Under the pieces are notes generated by a model that was not told the DNA's origin, searched no databases, and was given only the letters and a program-made list of their open reading frames with translations. Position numbers and translations under genes: made by a program. Below, in pieces: positions 1 through 12,526 of a stretch of DNA of 12,526 bases. Source of the stretch: a virus (Duplodnaviria > Heunggongvirae > Uroviricota > Caudoviricetes); the IMG/VR virus record IMGVR_UViG_2671180012_000008; one strand, written 5' to 3'. Each line of letters starts with the position of its first letter. Within the stretch, counting starts at the first letter, position 1.

Positions 1-38
1 TTAGTGTATGATGGTGTTTTTGAGGTGCTCCAGTGGCT
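1..38 (+). mobile_element. IS1 left-end fragment, just inside the left inverted repeat and running into the insA start
   Basis: The 38 nt TTAGTGTATGATGGTGTTTTTGAGGTGCTCCAGTGGCT match the IS1 left terminal region as I recall it, ending at the GTGGCT that opens insA. Cut by the N-run at 39-48. Confidence 0.7.
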
Positions 39-48
39 NNNNNNNNNN

Positions 49-2097
49 TCCGGTTGCAAAATGGAATTTCGCCGCAGCGGCCTGAATGGCTGTACCGCCT
101 GATGCGGATGCGCCGCCACCAACAGCCCCGCCAATGGCGCTGCCGATACTCCCGACAATCCCCACCATTGCCTGCTTAAGCAGAATTTCTGTCATCATGG
201 ACAGCACGGAACGGGTGAAGCTGCGCCAGTTCTGCTCACTGCCGGTCAGCATCGCTGCCATATTCTGTGCAATACCATCAAAGGTCTGCGTGGCTGCACT
301 TTTTACCTGCGACATACTGTCCGTGGCGCTCTCTTCCCACTCACTCCAGCCGGACTTCAGGCCTGCCATCCAGCTCCCGCGAAGCTGGTCTTCAGCCGCC
401 CAGGTCTTTTTCTGCTCTGACATGACGTTATTCAGCGCCAGCGGATTATCGCCATACTGTTCCTTCAGGCGCTGTTCCGTGGCTTCCCGTTCTGCCTGCC
501 GGTCAGTCAGCCCCCGGCTTTTCGCATCAATGGCGGCCCGTTTTGCCCGTTGCTGCTGTGCGAATTTATCCGCCTGCTGCGCCAGCGCGTTCAGGCGCTC
601 CTGATACGTAACCTTGTCGCCAAGTGCAGCCAGCTGGCGTTTGTACTCCAGCGTCTCATCTTTATGCGCCAGCAGGGATTTCTCCTGTGCAGACAGCTGG
701 CGACGTTGCGCCGCCTCCTCCAGTACCGCGAACTGACTCTCCGCCTTCCACAAATCCCGGCGCTGCTGGCTGATTTTCTCATTTGCTCCGGCATGCTTCT
801 CCAGCGTCCGGAGTTCTGCCTGAAGCGTCAGCAGGGCAGCATGAGCACTGTCTTCCTGACGATCGCCCGCAGACACCTTCACGCCGGACTGTTTCGGCTT
901 TTTCAGCGTCGCTTCATAATCCTTTTTCGCCGCCGCCATCAGCGTGTTGTAATCCGCCTGCAGGATTTTCCCGTCTTTCAGTGCCTTGTTCAGTTCTTCC
1001 TGACGGGCGGTATATTTCTCCAGCGGCGTCTGCAGCCGTTCGTAAGCCTTCTGCGCCTCTTCGGTATATTTCAGCTGTGACGCTTCAGTATCGCTCTGCT
1101 GCTGCGCATTTTTGTCCTGTTGAGTCTGCTGCTCAGCCTTCTTTCGGGCGGCTTCAAGCGCAAGACGGGCCTTTTCACGATCATCCCAGTAACGCGCCCG
1201 CGCTTCATCGTTAACAAAATAATCATCCTTGCGCAGATTCCAGATGTCGTCTGCTTTCTTAAACGCAGCCTCTGCCTTAATCAGCATCTCCTGCGCGGTA
1301 TCAGGACGACCAATATCCAGCACCGCATCCCACATGGATTTGAATGCCCGCGCAGTCCTGTCTGCCCAGGTCTCCAGCGTGCCCATGTTCTCTTTCAGGC
1401 GGCGGGTCTGGTCATCAAACCCTTTCGTTGCGGCCTCGTTCGCCGCCTGCAATGCCCCGGCTTCATCGCCGGAACGCTGCAACTGAGCAACATACGCAAT
1501 CTGCTCCGCCGTCACGTTATGGAACTGGCGTGCCATCGCCGTCAGCCCCGACGTCGGGTCTGTGGTCAGCTTCCCGAAGGCTTCTGCGACCTTGTCCACC
1601 TCCACGCCGGATGCAGAGGAGAAACGCGCCACACTCTGGCTGATGGACGCAATCTGAGCCTCACCGCTTACCCCCGCCTTAACCAGTGCGCTGAGTGACT
1701 CGCTGGTCTGGTTAAACGTCAGCCCTGCCGCCTGCCCGGCTCTGGACAGGACCAGCATACGATCTGCCGTCAGACCCGACTGATTACCGGAAAGGACCAG
1801 CGTTTTGTTGAAATCGGACAGGGTTGAGTTGCCCTGATACCAGGCATACGCCAGCGCACCGGTCGCCACCGCCAGCGAGGTGGCCCCGACCATCGGCAGG
1901 GTGATCGCACCGGCAAGCCCCCTGAACATGGGGATCATCCCGCCGAAGGAGTCCTTCACCTGACCACCCTGTTGCAGCAGGATCAGCCACGGACTCTGCC
2001 CGCCTGCAAGCTGCGTGGCCACGTCGGTGAACTGCGCAGGCAGCATACGCATGGCGGCTTTATACTGCCCGACGGAAATCCCCGCTTTCTGTGCAGC
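49..2097 (-). CDS. H: Lambda-like tail tape measure protein gpH, internal fragment truncated at both ends by N-runs
   Basis: The minus-strand translation runs AAQKAGISVGQYKAAMRMLPAQFTDVATQLAGGQSPWLILLQQGG ... GGTAIQAAAAKFHFATG with a long coiled-coil-like Q/A/K/E-rich middle, near-identical to lambda gpH as I recall it. The Met at 2052 reported by the ORF track is internal; the frame stays open up to the gap at 2098. Confidence 0.92.
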
Positions 2098-2107
2098 NNN
2101 NNNNNNN

Positions 2108-2239
2108 TCAGTCCGTCACCGACGGTGTGAAGGTGAAAGTGAGCCGTGTTCCTGACGGCGTTGCCGGATACAGCATATGGGGGCTGAAGCTGCCGACGCT
2201 GCGCCAGCGCCTGTTCCGCTGTGTGAGTATCCGTGAGAA
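2108..2239 (+). CDS. J: Lambda-like tail tip / host specificity protein J, central fragment (variant 1)
   Basis: Translation QSVTDGVKVKVSRVPDGVAGYSIWGLKLPTLRQRLFRCVSIRE matches the central part of lambda J. It overlaps in content with the next block, so it is a second copy rather than a continuation. Confidence 0.85.
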
Positions 2240-2249
2240 NNNNNNNNNN

Positions 2250-2666
2250 GAAAGTGAGCCGGGTTCCTGACGGCGTTGCCGAGTACAGCGTGTGGGGGCT
2301 GAAGCTGCCGACGCTGCGCCAGCGCCTGTTCCGCTGTGTGAGTATCCGTGAGAACGATGACGGCACGTATGCCATCACTGCCGTGCAGCATGTACCGGAG
2401 AAAGAAGCCATCGTGGATAACGGGGCGCACTTTGACGGCGACCAGAGCGGAACGGTAAACGGTGTCACGCCGCCAGCGGTGCAGCACCTGACCGCAGAAG
2501 TCACCGCAGACAGCGGGGAATACCAGGTGCTGGCGCGCTGGGACACGCCGAAGGTGGTGAAGGGCGTGAGTTTCCTGCTTCGCCTGACCGTGGCAGCGGA
2601 TGACGGCAGTGAGCGGCTGGTCAGCACGGCCCGGACGACGGAAACCACATACCGCTTCACGCAGCT
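2250..2666 (+). CDS. J: Lambda-like J, central fragment (variant 2)
   Basis: Translation KVSRVPDGVAEYSVWGLKLPTLRQRLFRCVSIRENDDGTYAITAVQHVPEKEAIVDNGAHFDGDQSGTVNGVTPPAVQHLTAEVTADSGEYQVLARWDTPKVVKGVSFLLRLTVAADDGSERLVSTARTTETTYRFTQ, near-identical to lambda J. Confidence 0.9.
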
Positions 2667-2676
2667 NNNNNNNNNN

Positions 2677-3109
2677 CTTACCGTCTTCGGTCTGCTCAAT
2701 TTTGACGCCCCACATGGCGTTCCATTTATCGTTAGCGTCCTTCCACTCTTTCGAAAACTCCTCCAGTCTGCTGGCGTTATCCTCCGTCAGCTCGACTTTT
2801 TCCAGCAACTCCTTGCCGAGATGGGATTCGGTTATCTTGCCTTTGAAAAAATCCAGGTAACCTTCCGCATCATCGCTCGCCCGACCGACGGCCTCCACAA
2901 ATGCCGATTTGCCAACGGTGTTCACACTGCGGATATAAAAGTAATAATCATGGCCCGGTTTGATATTGATACTGGCGGCTATCCAGTACAGCCCCGTGCC
3001 AAGATAGCGGGCTGTGGTTTCAACCTGCCTGATATCGGTAATCCGCTTTTCCGAGAACCAGAACTCAAACTGTACCGTCGGATCATAAACCGCAAGATGC
3101 GGCGTGGCG
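2677..3109 (-). CDS. J: Lambda-like J, fragment of the C-terminal half
   Basis: Minus-strand translation [144 protein letters not shown] matches lambda J. The GTG at 2925 used by the ORF track is internal. Confidence 0.85.
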
Positions 3110-3119
3110 NNNNNNNNNN

Positions 3120-11556: not shown

Positions 11557-11774
11557 NNNNNNNNNNAATTCACCACAGCGATGTGGTAACTTCGGTGAGA
11601 TTGTGAAAGTTTGCACTCATCGGGGAAGGGTGAGAACCTTCGACTAAGGTTCGATTCGAGCGAAAGCGAGAGAACGTTGCCACAGGCAACGGCCCGAAGG
11701 GTGAGGAGCGAAGCGACGAATAATCCTTCCCCCACCACCATCTCAAGCATTACCTCGAAATTTGAATTACCCCT

Positions 11775-11835
11775 GGTGGGGTTCCCGAGCGGCCAAAGGG
11801 AGCAGACTGTAAATCTGCCGTCATCGACTTCGAAG
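11775..11835 (+). tRNA. tRNA-Tyr (anticodon GTA), first 61 nt; 3-prime part lost in the gap at 11836-11845
   Basis: GGTGGGGTTCCCGAGCGGCCAAAGGGAGCAGACTGTAAATCTGCCGTCATCGACTTCGAAG is identical to the 5-prime 61 nt of E. coli tRNA-Tyr as I recall it. Which copy (tyrT, tyrV or tyrU) cannot be told from this. Confidence 0.9.
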
Positions 11836-11845
11836 NNNNNNNNNN

Positions 11846-11945
11846 CCGGATAAGCTGCTGCAGCTGATGCGGGTTCTCTTCATTCAGCAGGTTGCCCCAT
11901 TCATCATATTCTGCGCACCACGCTGTTGCCCCTTCCGTGCTGATG
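11846..11945 (-). CDS. Rhs core fragment (second copy, longer into the core)
   Basis: Translation [33 protein letters not shown] matches the conserved Rhs core shortly upstream of the core/toxin-tip boundary. Confidence 0.85.
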
Positions 11946-11955
11946 NNNNNNNNNN

Positions 11956-12266
11956 GCCGAAAGTAAAACGCAGACGGTCGATGTTTGCCGACGTGATGGC
12001 GCGGGTGATCGGCGTGTCATATTTCACTTCCGTACCCAGCACCGTCTCGGAGCCGGAGGATTCAAATCCCTCCGGCGGAGTCTGCTCCTGCTCACCAGCC
12101 CGGAACACCACCGTGACACCGGTGATGTTGGTATTCCCCTCACTGTCCAGCACCGGCGTACTGTTCAGCAGCACGCTTTTTAATCCATCCACCGGACCTT
12201 CAACCGGCCCTTCACTGATGGCGTCTATCACGCTCAGCATCTGGGATGATTTCAGGTTGTCCTTCG
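11956..12266 (-). CDS. J: Lambda-like J, N-terminal-region fragment
   Basis: Translation KDNLKSSQMLSVIDAISEGPVEGPVDGLKSVLLNSTPVLDSEGNTNITGVTVVFRAGEQEQTPPEGFESSGSETVLGTEVKYDTPITRAITSANIDRLRFTFG matches the lambda J N-terminal region. Confidence 0.88.
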
Positions 12267-12276
12267 NNNNNNNNNN

Positions 12277-12396
12277 GTCGGCCTGGAATTTATCCAGCGC
12301 ATCGTGCAGCGGTTGTGGGAACTCATAGTTACCGGTGTAGGTCACGCCGAAAGTCGGCACCACGCCGATGGTGTTTTCGTCACAGGCTTCAATCAT
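12277..12396 (-). CDS. gadA/gadB: Glutamate decarboxylase (GadA/GadB) internal fragment, copy 1
   Basis: Translation [40 protein letters not shown] matches the internal segment of E. coli GadA/GadB (..[24 protein letters not shown]..). The Met is internal. Confidence 0.88.
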
Positions 12397-12406
12397 NNNN
12401 NNNNNN

Positions 12407-12526
12407 ATCGGCCTGGAATTTATCCAGCGCATCGTGCAGCGGTTGTGGGAACTCATAGTTACCAGTGTAGGTCACGCCGAAAGTCGGCACCACGCCGATG
12501 GTGTTTTCGTCACAGGCTTCAATCAT
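12407..12526 (-). CDS. gadA/gadB: Glutamate decarboxylase (GadA/GadB) internal fragment, copy 2
   Basis: Same 40 codons as copy 1 with two synonymous third-position differences (ACC/ACT and GAC/GAT), consistent with the two gad paralogues. Confidence 0.88.

What the first reader, a model, noticed from the sequence alone, without database searches (positions are those of the whole stretch)
1..12526. Window is a patchwork of 33 blocks joined by 32 runs of exactly 10 N; adjacency is not biological
Every N-run is exactly 10 nt. Blocks on either side are frequently on opposite strands (gpH minus then J plus at 2098-2107) or are overlapping variants of the same gene segment (J at 2108-2239 versus 2250-2355). 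Where two blocks belong to one gene, the missing part is much longer than 10 nt (about 37 codons of gpC between 8576 and 8587). Every block belongs to a class that is multi-copy in E. coli (lambdoid late genes, IS1, H-repeat, Rhs, rrn, tRNA-Tyr, gad, REP). This is the signature of collapsed-repeat contigs concatenated with fixed-size gap markers, so synteny across any N-run is uninformative.
Basis: partly seen in the sequence, partly recalled or inferred. Interest (0 to 1): 0.5.

Follow-up and report, generated by a model that had tools for sequence, protein, structure and literature searches.

The report
Short-read assembly scraps joined by Ns
This window is not a real stretch of chromosome but a string of 33 short E. 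coli assembly-graph fragments (k-mer size 63) from repeat-rich regions, joined by placeholder gaps of 10 N, so gene order across the gaps has no biological meaning.

Summary
In detail: there are 32 N-runs, each exactly 10 nt, separating 33 blocks of E. coli DNA. The blocks map to unrelated loci in scrambled order and orientation.

The blocks are nodes of a de Bruijn graph with k = 63, written without their 62-nt overlap prefix.
- No 63-mer occurs twice among the blocks, and the longest exact string shared by any two blocks is 62 nt (four pairs).
- Ten of 20 lambdoid blocks begin on a base that differs from a reference prophage. None ends on one.
- Graphs rebuilt from complete-genome loci regenerate five blocks exactly at k = 63 and at none of eight other k values.

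This node format and the 10-N gap fit a Velvet-family scaffold. The assembler's name is inferred, not shown.

Its model of collapsed repeats is not. At least 15 blocks are copy-specific branches or single-copy spacers lying between repeats, for example a gadA-specific and a gadB-specific piece side by side. These should have single-copy read depth. One block, from a P4-like primase, is not typically multi-copy. The order is not random, and one junction (B20→B21 in gpC) is collinear.

This is an artefact of low biological interest.

The parts
39..12406 (.). 32 gap markers, each exactly 10 N. They start at 39, 2098, 2240, 2667, 3110, 3854, 4217, 4767, 5128, 5279, 5424, 6321, 6475, 6591, 6712, 6831, 7522, 7970, 8459, 8577, 8698, 8789, 8877, 8965, 10695, 11039, 11163, 11557, 11836, 11946, 12267 and 12397.
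1..38 (.). B01: end of IS1, reading inward. It is shorter than k = 63, so it is probably cut by the start of the window.
   Evidence: 100% match to three IS1 copies in L001
49..2097 (-). B02: lambdoid tail tape-measure gene (gpH)
   Evidence: L001 20184-22241, 94.1% identity
2108..2239 (+). B03: gpJ fragment, one version of the segment also covered by B04
   Evidence: ends exactly 62 nt after its last difference from B04
2250..2666 (+). B04: gpJ fragment, the other version; overlaps B03 by 105 nt at 95.2% identity
2677..3109 (-). B05: gpJ fragment. It lies 141 nt from B04 on the reference but is written in the opposite orientation.
3120..3853 (-). B06: ISEc1 (ISAs1 family, H-repeat) transposase. 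Two tandem copies abut at about 3760/3761.
3864..4216 (+). B07: junction of the head decoration and major capsid genes (gpD/gpE)
4227..4766 (-). B08: prophage tail-fibre gene, region encoding the N-terminal domain
4777..5127 (-). B09: C40 peptidase tail gene (gpK)
5138..5278 (.). B10: GC-rich intergenic REP cluster between dusC and yohP
   Evidence: median 3 places per genome
5289..5423 (+). B11: spacer and terminator region starting 8 nt after the 5S rRNA gene of an rrn operon
   Evidence: median 2 places per genome
5434..6320 (-). B12: primase gene of a P4-like satellite prophage
   Evidence: found in 231 of 5,426 genomes, best identity 98.1%, median 1 copy
6331..6474 (+). B13: gpD fragment, a version of the first 144 nt of B07 (97.9% identity)
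   Evidence: ends 62 nt after its last difference from B07
6485..6590 (-). B14: gpJ fragment, a version of part of B05 (95.2% identity)
6601..6711 (-). B15: Rhs core fragment, partly paralogous to B30
   Evidence: median 5 places per genome
6722..6830 (-). B16: junction of the head-tail joining and FI genes
6841..7521 (-). B17: tail genes gpG/gpV
7532..7969 (+). B18: gpV/gpG, a version of B17 (94.5% identity) written in the opposite orientation
7980..8458 (+). B19: tail genes gpI/gpK
8469..8576 (-). B20: S49 peptidase gene (gpC)
8587..8697 (-). B21: gpC, collinear with B20; 112 nt of the reference are missing between them
8708..8788 (-). B22: one unit-specific stretch of the internal repeats of an autotransporter gene
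8799..8876 (+). B23: one unit-specific stretch of the internal tandem repeats of rsxC
8887..8964 (+). B24: prophage tail-fibre gene fragment
8975..10694 (+). B25: lambdoid region beside the small terminase subunit gene, carrying YlcI/YnfO-like and DUF1398 genes and running to the end of the lysis genes
10705..11038 (+). B26: tail genes gpV/gpU
11049..11162 (.). B27: intergenic REP element
   Evidence: median 10 places per genome
11173..11556 (-). B28: FI and major capsid genes
11567..11835 (+). B29: single-copy tyrT-tyrV spacer with RtT (11609-11740) plus the first 61 nt of tyrV
11846..11945 (-). B30: Rhs core fragment
11956..12266 (-). B31: gpJ fragment
12277..12396 (-). B32: gadA-specific 120-nt branch
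   Evidence: exact copy in K-12 gadA
12407..12526 (-). B33: gadB-specific 120-nt branch, differing from B32 at positions 1 and 58
   Evidence: exact copy in K-12 gadB

Best explanation
The window is a product of short-read assembly, not a genomic locus.

Each of the 33 blocks is one node of a de Bruijn graph built with k = 63 from an E. coli genome. That genome carries several lambdoid prophages plus the usual repeat families. Each node is written one base per k-mer, so it lacks the 62-nt prefix it shares with its graph neighbours.

Nodes end wherever two repeat copies diverge or converge. The short nodes left unresolved are therefore of three kinds: copy-specific branches of repeats, single-copy spacers caught between repeats, and possibly some truly collapsed segments. 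These nodes were chained with a gap marker of 10 N that is a minimum or placeholder, not a measured distance.

The node format, the odd k and the 10-N gap are what Velvet-family scaffolding writes. That rule comes from my own knowledge of the Velvet manual and code: gaps below 10 are written as 10 N, and appended nodes lack the k-1 prefix. I could not verify it with the tools here.

The chain keeps some graph-neighbourhood information but is not a path through the genome.

Shown: the node nature, k = 63, the missing prefix, and the non-genomic adjacency. Inferred: which program wrote it, and why the blocks are in this order.
For: -: 32 of 32 gaps are exactly 10 N.
- no 63-mer occurs twice in the blocks on either strand. 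The longest exact string shared by two blocks is 62 nt, in four pairs that are 94-99% identical over 105-437 nt.
- paired versions start on a differing base and end exactly 62 nt after a differing base.
- this was tested in complete genomes holding exact copies of B22, B23, B29, B32 and B33. The 62-mer just upstream of each block recurs followed by a different base. The block's last 62-mer recurs preceded by a different base and followed by the same base. The flanking 63-mers are unique within the loci examined.
- graphs rebuilt from those loci regenerate all five blocks exactly as node descriptors at k = 63, and at none of k = 55, 59, 61, 62, 64, 65, 67 or 71.
- the first base mismatches a reference prophage in 10 of 20 lambdoid blocks, and the last base in 0 of 19 (P about 2e-9). 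This happens on the window's plus strand whatever the gene orientation.
- no complete genome holds the arrangement. Lambdoid blocks are scrambled in order and strand.
- B32 and B33 are exact copies of K-12 gadA and gadB, which lie about 2.1 Mb apart in K-12.
- (PMC3530497): documents authors converting all sized gaps of Oases (Velvet-family) scaffolds to 10 N for NCBI submission. This is a second route to uniform 10-N gaps.
Against: - The source record and its assembly metadata were not found, so the assembler is not documented.
- If the 10 N were Velvet's own distance estimates, the B20→B21 gap should be about 111 N rather than 10. That needs either a mis-set insert length or later normalisation of the gaps.
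- A working paired-read scaffolder should have placed B29 between the purU and narI flanks, not between a lambdoid node and an Rhs node.
- Two neighbouring pairs (B04/B05, B17/B18) are in opposite orientation.
- I could not confirm Velvet's 10-N rule in the papers I could search.
Confidence: 0.93

Rival explanations
1. Each block is a contig in which all copies of a repeat were collapsed. The small contigs were exported by the assembler and then concatenated by a script with a fixed 10-N spacer.
For: - Most blocks come from families with 2-10 similar places per genome.
- All spacers are identical in length.
- Most junctions join unrelated loci.
- B29 was not placed next to its unique flanks, which argues against real read-pair scaffolding.
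- Some blocks (B01, B10, B27) could be truly collapsed. This was not testable.
Against: - At least 15 blocks are copy-specific or single-copy rather than collapsed.
- Exported contigs of a k = 63 graph would carry their 62-nt prefix and would overlap their graph neighbours. No overlaps of 12 nt or more exist, and blocks start exactly on the first distinguishing base.
- B12 is not typically multi-copy.
- The block order is non-random.
Confidence: 0.25
2. A post-hoc chain of raw graph nodes. Someone took node sequences from the graph file, or the pieces obtained by splitting scaffolds at their N-runs, and re-joined them with 10 N. No read-pair evidence supports any junction.
For: - It explains the missing prefix.
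- It explains the uniform 10 N despite a real 112-nt gap, the unrelated neighbours and the inverted neighbours.
Against: - Five of 32 junctions join graph neighbours, against 0.73 expected. That needs an ordering that follows the graph or the original scaffolds.
- No record or method description was found.
Confidence: 0.35
3. The paired versions are differences between strains in a mixed sample or metagenome, not paralogous copies within one genome.
For: The lambdoid pairs differ by 2-6%, which could equally be two strains' prophages. The source is unknown.
Against: - B32 and B33 are exact copies of the gadA and gadB of a single genome, K-12.
- B22, B23 and B29 are bounded by repeats inside single loci of single genomes.
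- E. coli genomes commonly hold several lambdoid prophages. One search gives a median of 24 matching places per genome for the whole window, though that count includes every repeat family in it, not just prophages.
Confidence: 0.05
4. A real contiguous locus with small sequencing gaps, or real sequence in which a database masked short stretches with N.
For: B20→B21 is collinear and in the same orientation.
Against: - Zero of 5,426 complete genomes has 80% or more of the window at one place.
- Alternative versions of the same segment sit in tandem.
- Pieces of gadA and gadB are adjacent.
- The one collinear junction hides 112 nt behind 10 N, so the Ns are not length-preserving masks.
Confidence: 0.01

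Closest known systems
Velvet-family (Velvet, Oases, MetaVelvet) scaffold output
   Same: - Node-centred graph with odd k.
- Nodes appended after a gap marker carry one base per k-mer and so lack the k-1 prefix.
- Gaps are never shorter than 10 N.
The first two features are demonstrated here. The gap rule is from my own knowledge of the Velvet manual and code.
   Different: - A true distance of about 111 is written as 10 N.
- Many joined nodes cannot be linked by genuine read pairs.
- No metadata confirm the program.
Collapsed-repeat contigs in short-read draft genomes
   Same: - The repeat families are the same ones: IS1, ISEc1/H-repeat, Rhs, rrn flank, REP and lambdoid prophages.
- The blocks are small fragments that other assemblies also fail to join. 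The B25 region sits on contigs of 2.9 kb or less in independent drafts.
   Different: Many blocks are the uncollapsed, copy-specific parts that lie between or inside repeats. Their expected depth is single copy.
Tandem placement of alternative bubble branches (haplotype or paralogue duplication artefact of scaffolders)
   Same: B03/B04 and B32/B33 are alternative versions of one segment placed one after the other with a minimum gap.
   Different: - Here the branches are paralogues in a haploid genome.
- One such pair (B17/B18) is in opposite orientation.
- Most junctions join unrelated loci.
Archive gap convention (runs of 10 or more N read as gaps)
   Same: Uniform 10-N runs. PMC3530497 reports resetting all sized gaps to 10 N to meet NCBI standards.
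   Different: The convention explains the length of the spacers only. It does not explain the content or order of the blocks.

Membership tests
Chain of de Bruijn graph nodes, k = 63, Velvet-type representation | Each k-mer belongs to only one node, so no 63-mer is shared between blocks | tested here: met
   zero repeated 63-mers on either strand. The maximum shared exact string is 62 nt, in four pairs.
Chain of de Bruijn graph nodes, k = 63, Velvet-type representation | Node ends coincide with branch and merge points of the k-mer graph of the genome | tested here: met
   five of five testable blocks meet this, and they are regenerated exactly only at k = 63. B10, B11 and B16 were not testable because their other copies lie outside the loci I fetched.
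Chain of de Bruijn graph nodes, k = 63, Velvet-type representation | Appended nodes lack the k-1 prefix on the written strand only | tested here: met
   the first base is variant in 10 of 20 blocks and the last base in 0 of 19; blocks start on the first distinguishing base and end 62 nt after the last one.
Chain of de Bruijn graph nodes, k = 63, Velvet-type representation | Node-centred rather than edge-centred graph: a shared 62-mer alone does not break a node | tested here: met
   B07, B04 and B17 each contain, internally and unbroken, the 62-mer that ends B13, B03 and B18.
Chain of de Bruijn graph nodes, k = 63, Velvet-type representation | Gap markers have a floor of 10 N | tested here: inconclusive
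   all 32 gaps are 10 N, which is compatible. The rule itself rests on my own knowledge and was not found in searchable papers. One search shows an alternative route to uniform 10 N.
Chain of de Bruijn graph nodes, k = 63, Velvet-type representation | Junctions are supported by read pairs | not testable with these tools
   No reads are available and the source record was not found.
Collapsed-repeat contigs | The block belongs to a family present in several copies per genome | tested here: inconclusive
   Met for B06, B10, B11, B15, B22, B23, B27, B29 and B32 (median 2-10 places per genome). Not met for B12 (median 1).
Collapsed-repeat contigs | The block sequence is the one shared by all copies, i.e. 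the copies are merged | tested here: not met
   at least 15 blocks are copy-specific or single-copy.
Collapsed-repeat contigs | Read depth is a multiple of single-copy depth | not testable with these tools
   No reads are available. The prediction from this work is about 1x depth for B22, B23, B29, B32, B33 and the paired versions.
Genuine contiguous genomic locus | Neighbouring blocks are collinear in some complete genome | tested here: not met
   zero of 5,426 genomes holds 80% or more of the window at one place; only one of 32 junctions is collinear.

The most novel reading that the evidence does not exclude
Some non-random junctions might record real, rare DNA molecules in the sequenced culture rather than scaffolder noise. 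Candidates are the inverted gpJ and gpV/gpG neighbours, the tandem versions of the same segment, and the directly abutted ISEc1 copies inside B06. Such molecules could be recombinants between co-resident lambdoid prophages, or head-to-tail IS junctions.
Probability: 0.03. Interest if true: 0.3.

Novelty: not a real feature. Interest (0 to 1): 0.06.

Why it matters
The value is practical, not biological.
- Gene order, operon structure, fusion ORFs and 'mosaic prophage' inferences drawn across any N-run in this record would be false. ORF callers already produce X-containing chimeric ORFs across the gaps.
- The analysis gives a read-free way to recognise such records and recover the assembler's k. 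The longest exact string shared between blocks equals k-1, and blocks start on variant bases on one strand only.
- It also corrects a tempting quality-control rule. Small fragments from repeat regions are often the single-copy, copy-specific parts. Single-copy read depth therefore does not show that their placement is correct.

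Tried and rejected
- Terminal overlaps between blocks, as expected for exported graph contigs: none of 12 nt or more.
- Finding the source record failed:
  - A pattern spanning a junction was not found in genome contigs.
  - An exact 150-mer of the rare block B12 was not found in genome contigs, viral contigs or metagenome contigs.
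  - An exact-protein look-up of the DUF1398 ORF found only related draft contigs of 2.9 kb or less, with no N-runs.
- Rfam and ARAGORN for rRNA and tRNA: only RtT was found.
- Literature support for Velvet's 10-N floor: not found. Only the related practice of resetting gaps to 10 N turned up.
- Reference-guided ordering: the blocks are not collinear with a reference prophage, and no long unique contigs are interleaved.
- Edge-centred representations, where nodes would end in K shared bases, would need an even K of 62 and would have split B07, B04 and B17. The link to SOAPdenovo and SPAdes, and their need for an odd K, is from my own knowledge.
- An IS-circle reading of the B06 junction: rejected as the default, because tandem ISEc1 copies occur in Rhs-linked arrays of complete genomes.

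Full report
**Observation**

The window holds 32 runs of N, each exactly 10 nt, and no other ambiguity codes. They separate 33 blocks of 38 to 2049 nt.
- B02 (49-2097) is the tape-measure gene on the minus strand, and B03 (2108-2239) is gpJ on the plus strand.
- B03 and B04 overlap over 105 nt of gpJ at 95.2% identity.
- B20 and B21 are collinear in the S49 peptidase gene gpC, with 112 nt of the reference replaced by 10 N.

**What the blocks are**

Twenty blocks map to the late region of a lambdoid prophage (L001, NZ_CP178707) at 91-100% identity, in scrambled order and on both strands. The other blocks are listed here.

| Block | Identity |
|---|---|
| B01 | end of IS1 |
| B06 | ISEc1 / H-repeat (ISAs1 family) transposase |
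| B10 | REP cluster between dusC and yohP |
| B11 | 135 nt starting 8 nt after a 5S rRNA gene |
| B12 | primase gene of a P4-like satellite |
| B15, B30 | Rhs core |
| B22 | internal repeat of an autotransporter gene |
| B23 | internal repeat of rsxC |
| B27 | REP element |
| B29 | tyrT-tyrV spacer with RtT plus 61 nt of tyrV |
| B32, B33 | glutamate decarboxylase gene |

No complete tRNA or rRNA gene is present. Most of these families have 2-10 similar places per complete genome. B12 is the exception. It occurs in 231 of 5,426 genomes at high identity, and its median is one place per genome even at 65-80% identity.

**The blocks are graph nodes with k = 63**

Seven pairs of blocks showed significant similarity. 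Six of these are versions of the same segment (B03/B04, B05/B14, B07/B13, B17/B18, B15/B30, B32/B33). In them, blocks begin on a base that differs from the partner and end exactly 62 nt after a differing base. The seventh, B11/B29, is only a weak 32-nt match.

Across all blocks and both strands no 63-mer occurs twice. The longest exact string shared by two blocks is 62 nt, reached in four pairs.

Against a reference prophage, the first base of the block is a mismatch in 10 of 20 lambdoid blocks. The last base is a mismatch in 0 of 19. The mean mismatch rate is 4.1%, giving P about 2e-9. The asymmetry follows the window's plus strand, not the orientation of the genes.

I then examined complete genomes that contain exact copies of five blocks:

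| Block | Reference locus |
|---|---|
| B23 | rsxC, strain 120899 |
| B22 | autotransporter gene, ATCC 8739 |
| B32 | gadA, K-12 |
| B33 | gadB, K-12 |
| B29 | tyrT-tyrV, BLR(DE3) |

In every case the following held.
- The 62-mer just upstream of the block occurs a second time, followed by a different base.
- The 63-mer ending on the block's first base is unique.
- The block's last 62-mer occurs a second time, with a different preceding base and the same following base.
- The block's last 63-mer is unique.

Rebuilding de Bruijn graphs from those loci regenerates all five blocks exactly when each node is written one base per k-mer. This happens at k = 63 and at none of k = 55, 59, 61, 62, 64, 65, 67 or 71.

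The partners B07, B04 and B17 contain, unbroken, the 62-mer that ends B13, B03 and B18. The graph was therefore node-centred with k = 63, not edge-centred with K = 62.

**Consequence for the 'collapsed repeat' idea**

B32 is the gadA-specific branch and B33 the gadB-specific branch of one bubble. B29 is the unique spacer between two identical tRNA-Tyr genes. B22 and B23 are unit-specific stretches inside tandem repeats.

Together with the paired lambdoid and Rhs versions, at least 15 blocks are copy-specific or single-copy. They are what remains between collapsed segments, not the collapsed segments themselves. Their read depth should be about single copy.

**How the blocks were joined**

No complete E. 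coli genome holds 80% or more of the window at one place. Most junctions join unrelated loci.

The order is nevertheless not random. Five junctions join blocks that overlap or lie within 200 nt of each other on the reference, or are paralogues. These are B03/B04, B04/B05, B17/B18, B20/B21 and B32/B33. Only 0.73 such junctions are expected under shuffling (P = 4e-4). Of the five, only B20→B21 is a correct collinear join. Two place alternative versions in tandem, and two put neighbours in opposite orientation.

Three features are, to my knowledge of the Velvet manual and code, what Velvet writes when it merges nodes into a scaffold: the one-base-per-k-mer node format, an odd k, and a gap of never less than 10 N. 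I could not confirm the 10-N rule in the papers available.

A documented alternative for the uniform length is that submitters reset all sized gaps of Velvet-family scaffolds to 10 N to satisfy the archive (PMC3530497). That would also explain why a true gap of about 111 is written as 10.

Two observations argue that most joins are not genuine read-pair links. B29 is not attached to its unique flanks, and some neighbours are inverted. Whether the assembler's scaffolder or a later script made the chain remains open. I could not find the source record in any searchable collection.

**Comparison with known things, and verdict**

This is a known kind of artefact: a scaffold-like chain of short de Bruijn nodes from repeat-rich regions of a draft E. 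coli genome.
- It meets the tested defining features of a k = 63 Velvet-type node chain.
- It fails the defining feature of collapsed repeats for many blocks.
- It fails the test for a genuine locus.

The blocks are not collapsed contigs, and a minority of junctions do reflect closeness in the assembly graph.

Biological interest is very low. The useful result is a read-free diagnostic for such records, and a caution against using read depth alone to validate them.

**Minor points**
- The window starts inside a block: B01 is 38 nt, shorter than k. It ends exactly at the end of a complete node: B33 is 120 nt, like B32. This suggests the window is the 3' tail of a longer record.
- B06 contains two ISEc1 copies abutted head to tail. 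The Rhs-linked ISEc1 array of strain EcPF16 shows the same order with about 770 nt between the copies.
- B25 is 100% identical over about 1.3 kb to small contigs of three NCBI draft assemblies, so this region also breaks in other assemblies.

Noticed in passing
window 3120-3853 (junction near 3760/3761): B06 joins the upstream end of one ISEc1 (H-repeat) transposase gene directly to the downstream end of another, head to tail. In strain EcPF16 the same two pieces are collinear but about 770 nt apart, separated by an Rhs fragment and a DUF6258 gene. In SE11 they are the two ends of a single copy. The top-ranked matches in complete genomes were all in two pieces.
   Followed up: partly
window 5434-6320: The P4-like satellite primase fragment (B12) is at most 98.1% identical to any of 5,426 complete E. 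coli genomes, and occurs in only 231 of them. In the closest genome (EC261) the satellite sits next to the paoABCD genes and carries a Drt3a/Drt3b defence pair. Why this usually single-copy gene ended up as a short isolated node is not explained. A second related satellite in the source genome is the likely reason.
   Followed up: partly
window 8975-10694: The exact 141-aa DUF1398 protein of B25 was found only on contigs of 2.9 kb or less: NCBI drafts JRSS01, JRRQ01 and JRSD01, several Logan assemblies of sequencing runs (two SRR, one ERR) and one ENA metagenome contig. Three of these contigs are 100% identical to the first ~1,300 nt of B25. This points to the lineage of the source strain and shows that other assemblers also break here. 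B25 also lacks the IS150 that interrupts this region in L001.
   Followed up: partly
window 8781-9103 and 10553-10795: Mechanical ORF calling runs straight through the 10-N gaps and yields chimeric ORFs containing XXXX. An example is 8834-9103, which spans three gaps. Any annotation of the source record could contain such false fusion proteins.
   Followed up: no
window 1-38 and 12407-12526: The window begins with a 38-nt block, shorter than k = 63 and so presumably cut. It ends exactly at the end of a complete 120-nt node. This suggests the window is the last part of a longer record.
   Followed up: no
window 11567-11835: B29 starts 2 nt after the 3' end of tyrT and stops 61 nt into tyrV. It contains a full RtT element (Rfam score 132.9 bits) but no complete tRNA gene. 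It is a clear example of a single-copy spacer isolated by two identical 85-nt genes.
   Followed up: yes
window 3864-4216 vs 6331-6474; 2250-2666 vs 2108-2239; 6841-7521 vs 7532-7969: The shorter member of each pair ends at a 62-mer that lies, unbroken, inside the longer member. In a clean k = 63 graph this requires a third related prophage copy in the source genome, or arcs removed during graph clean-up.
   Followed up: no
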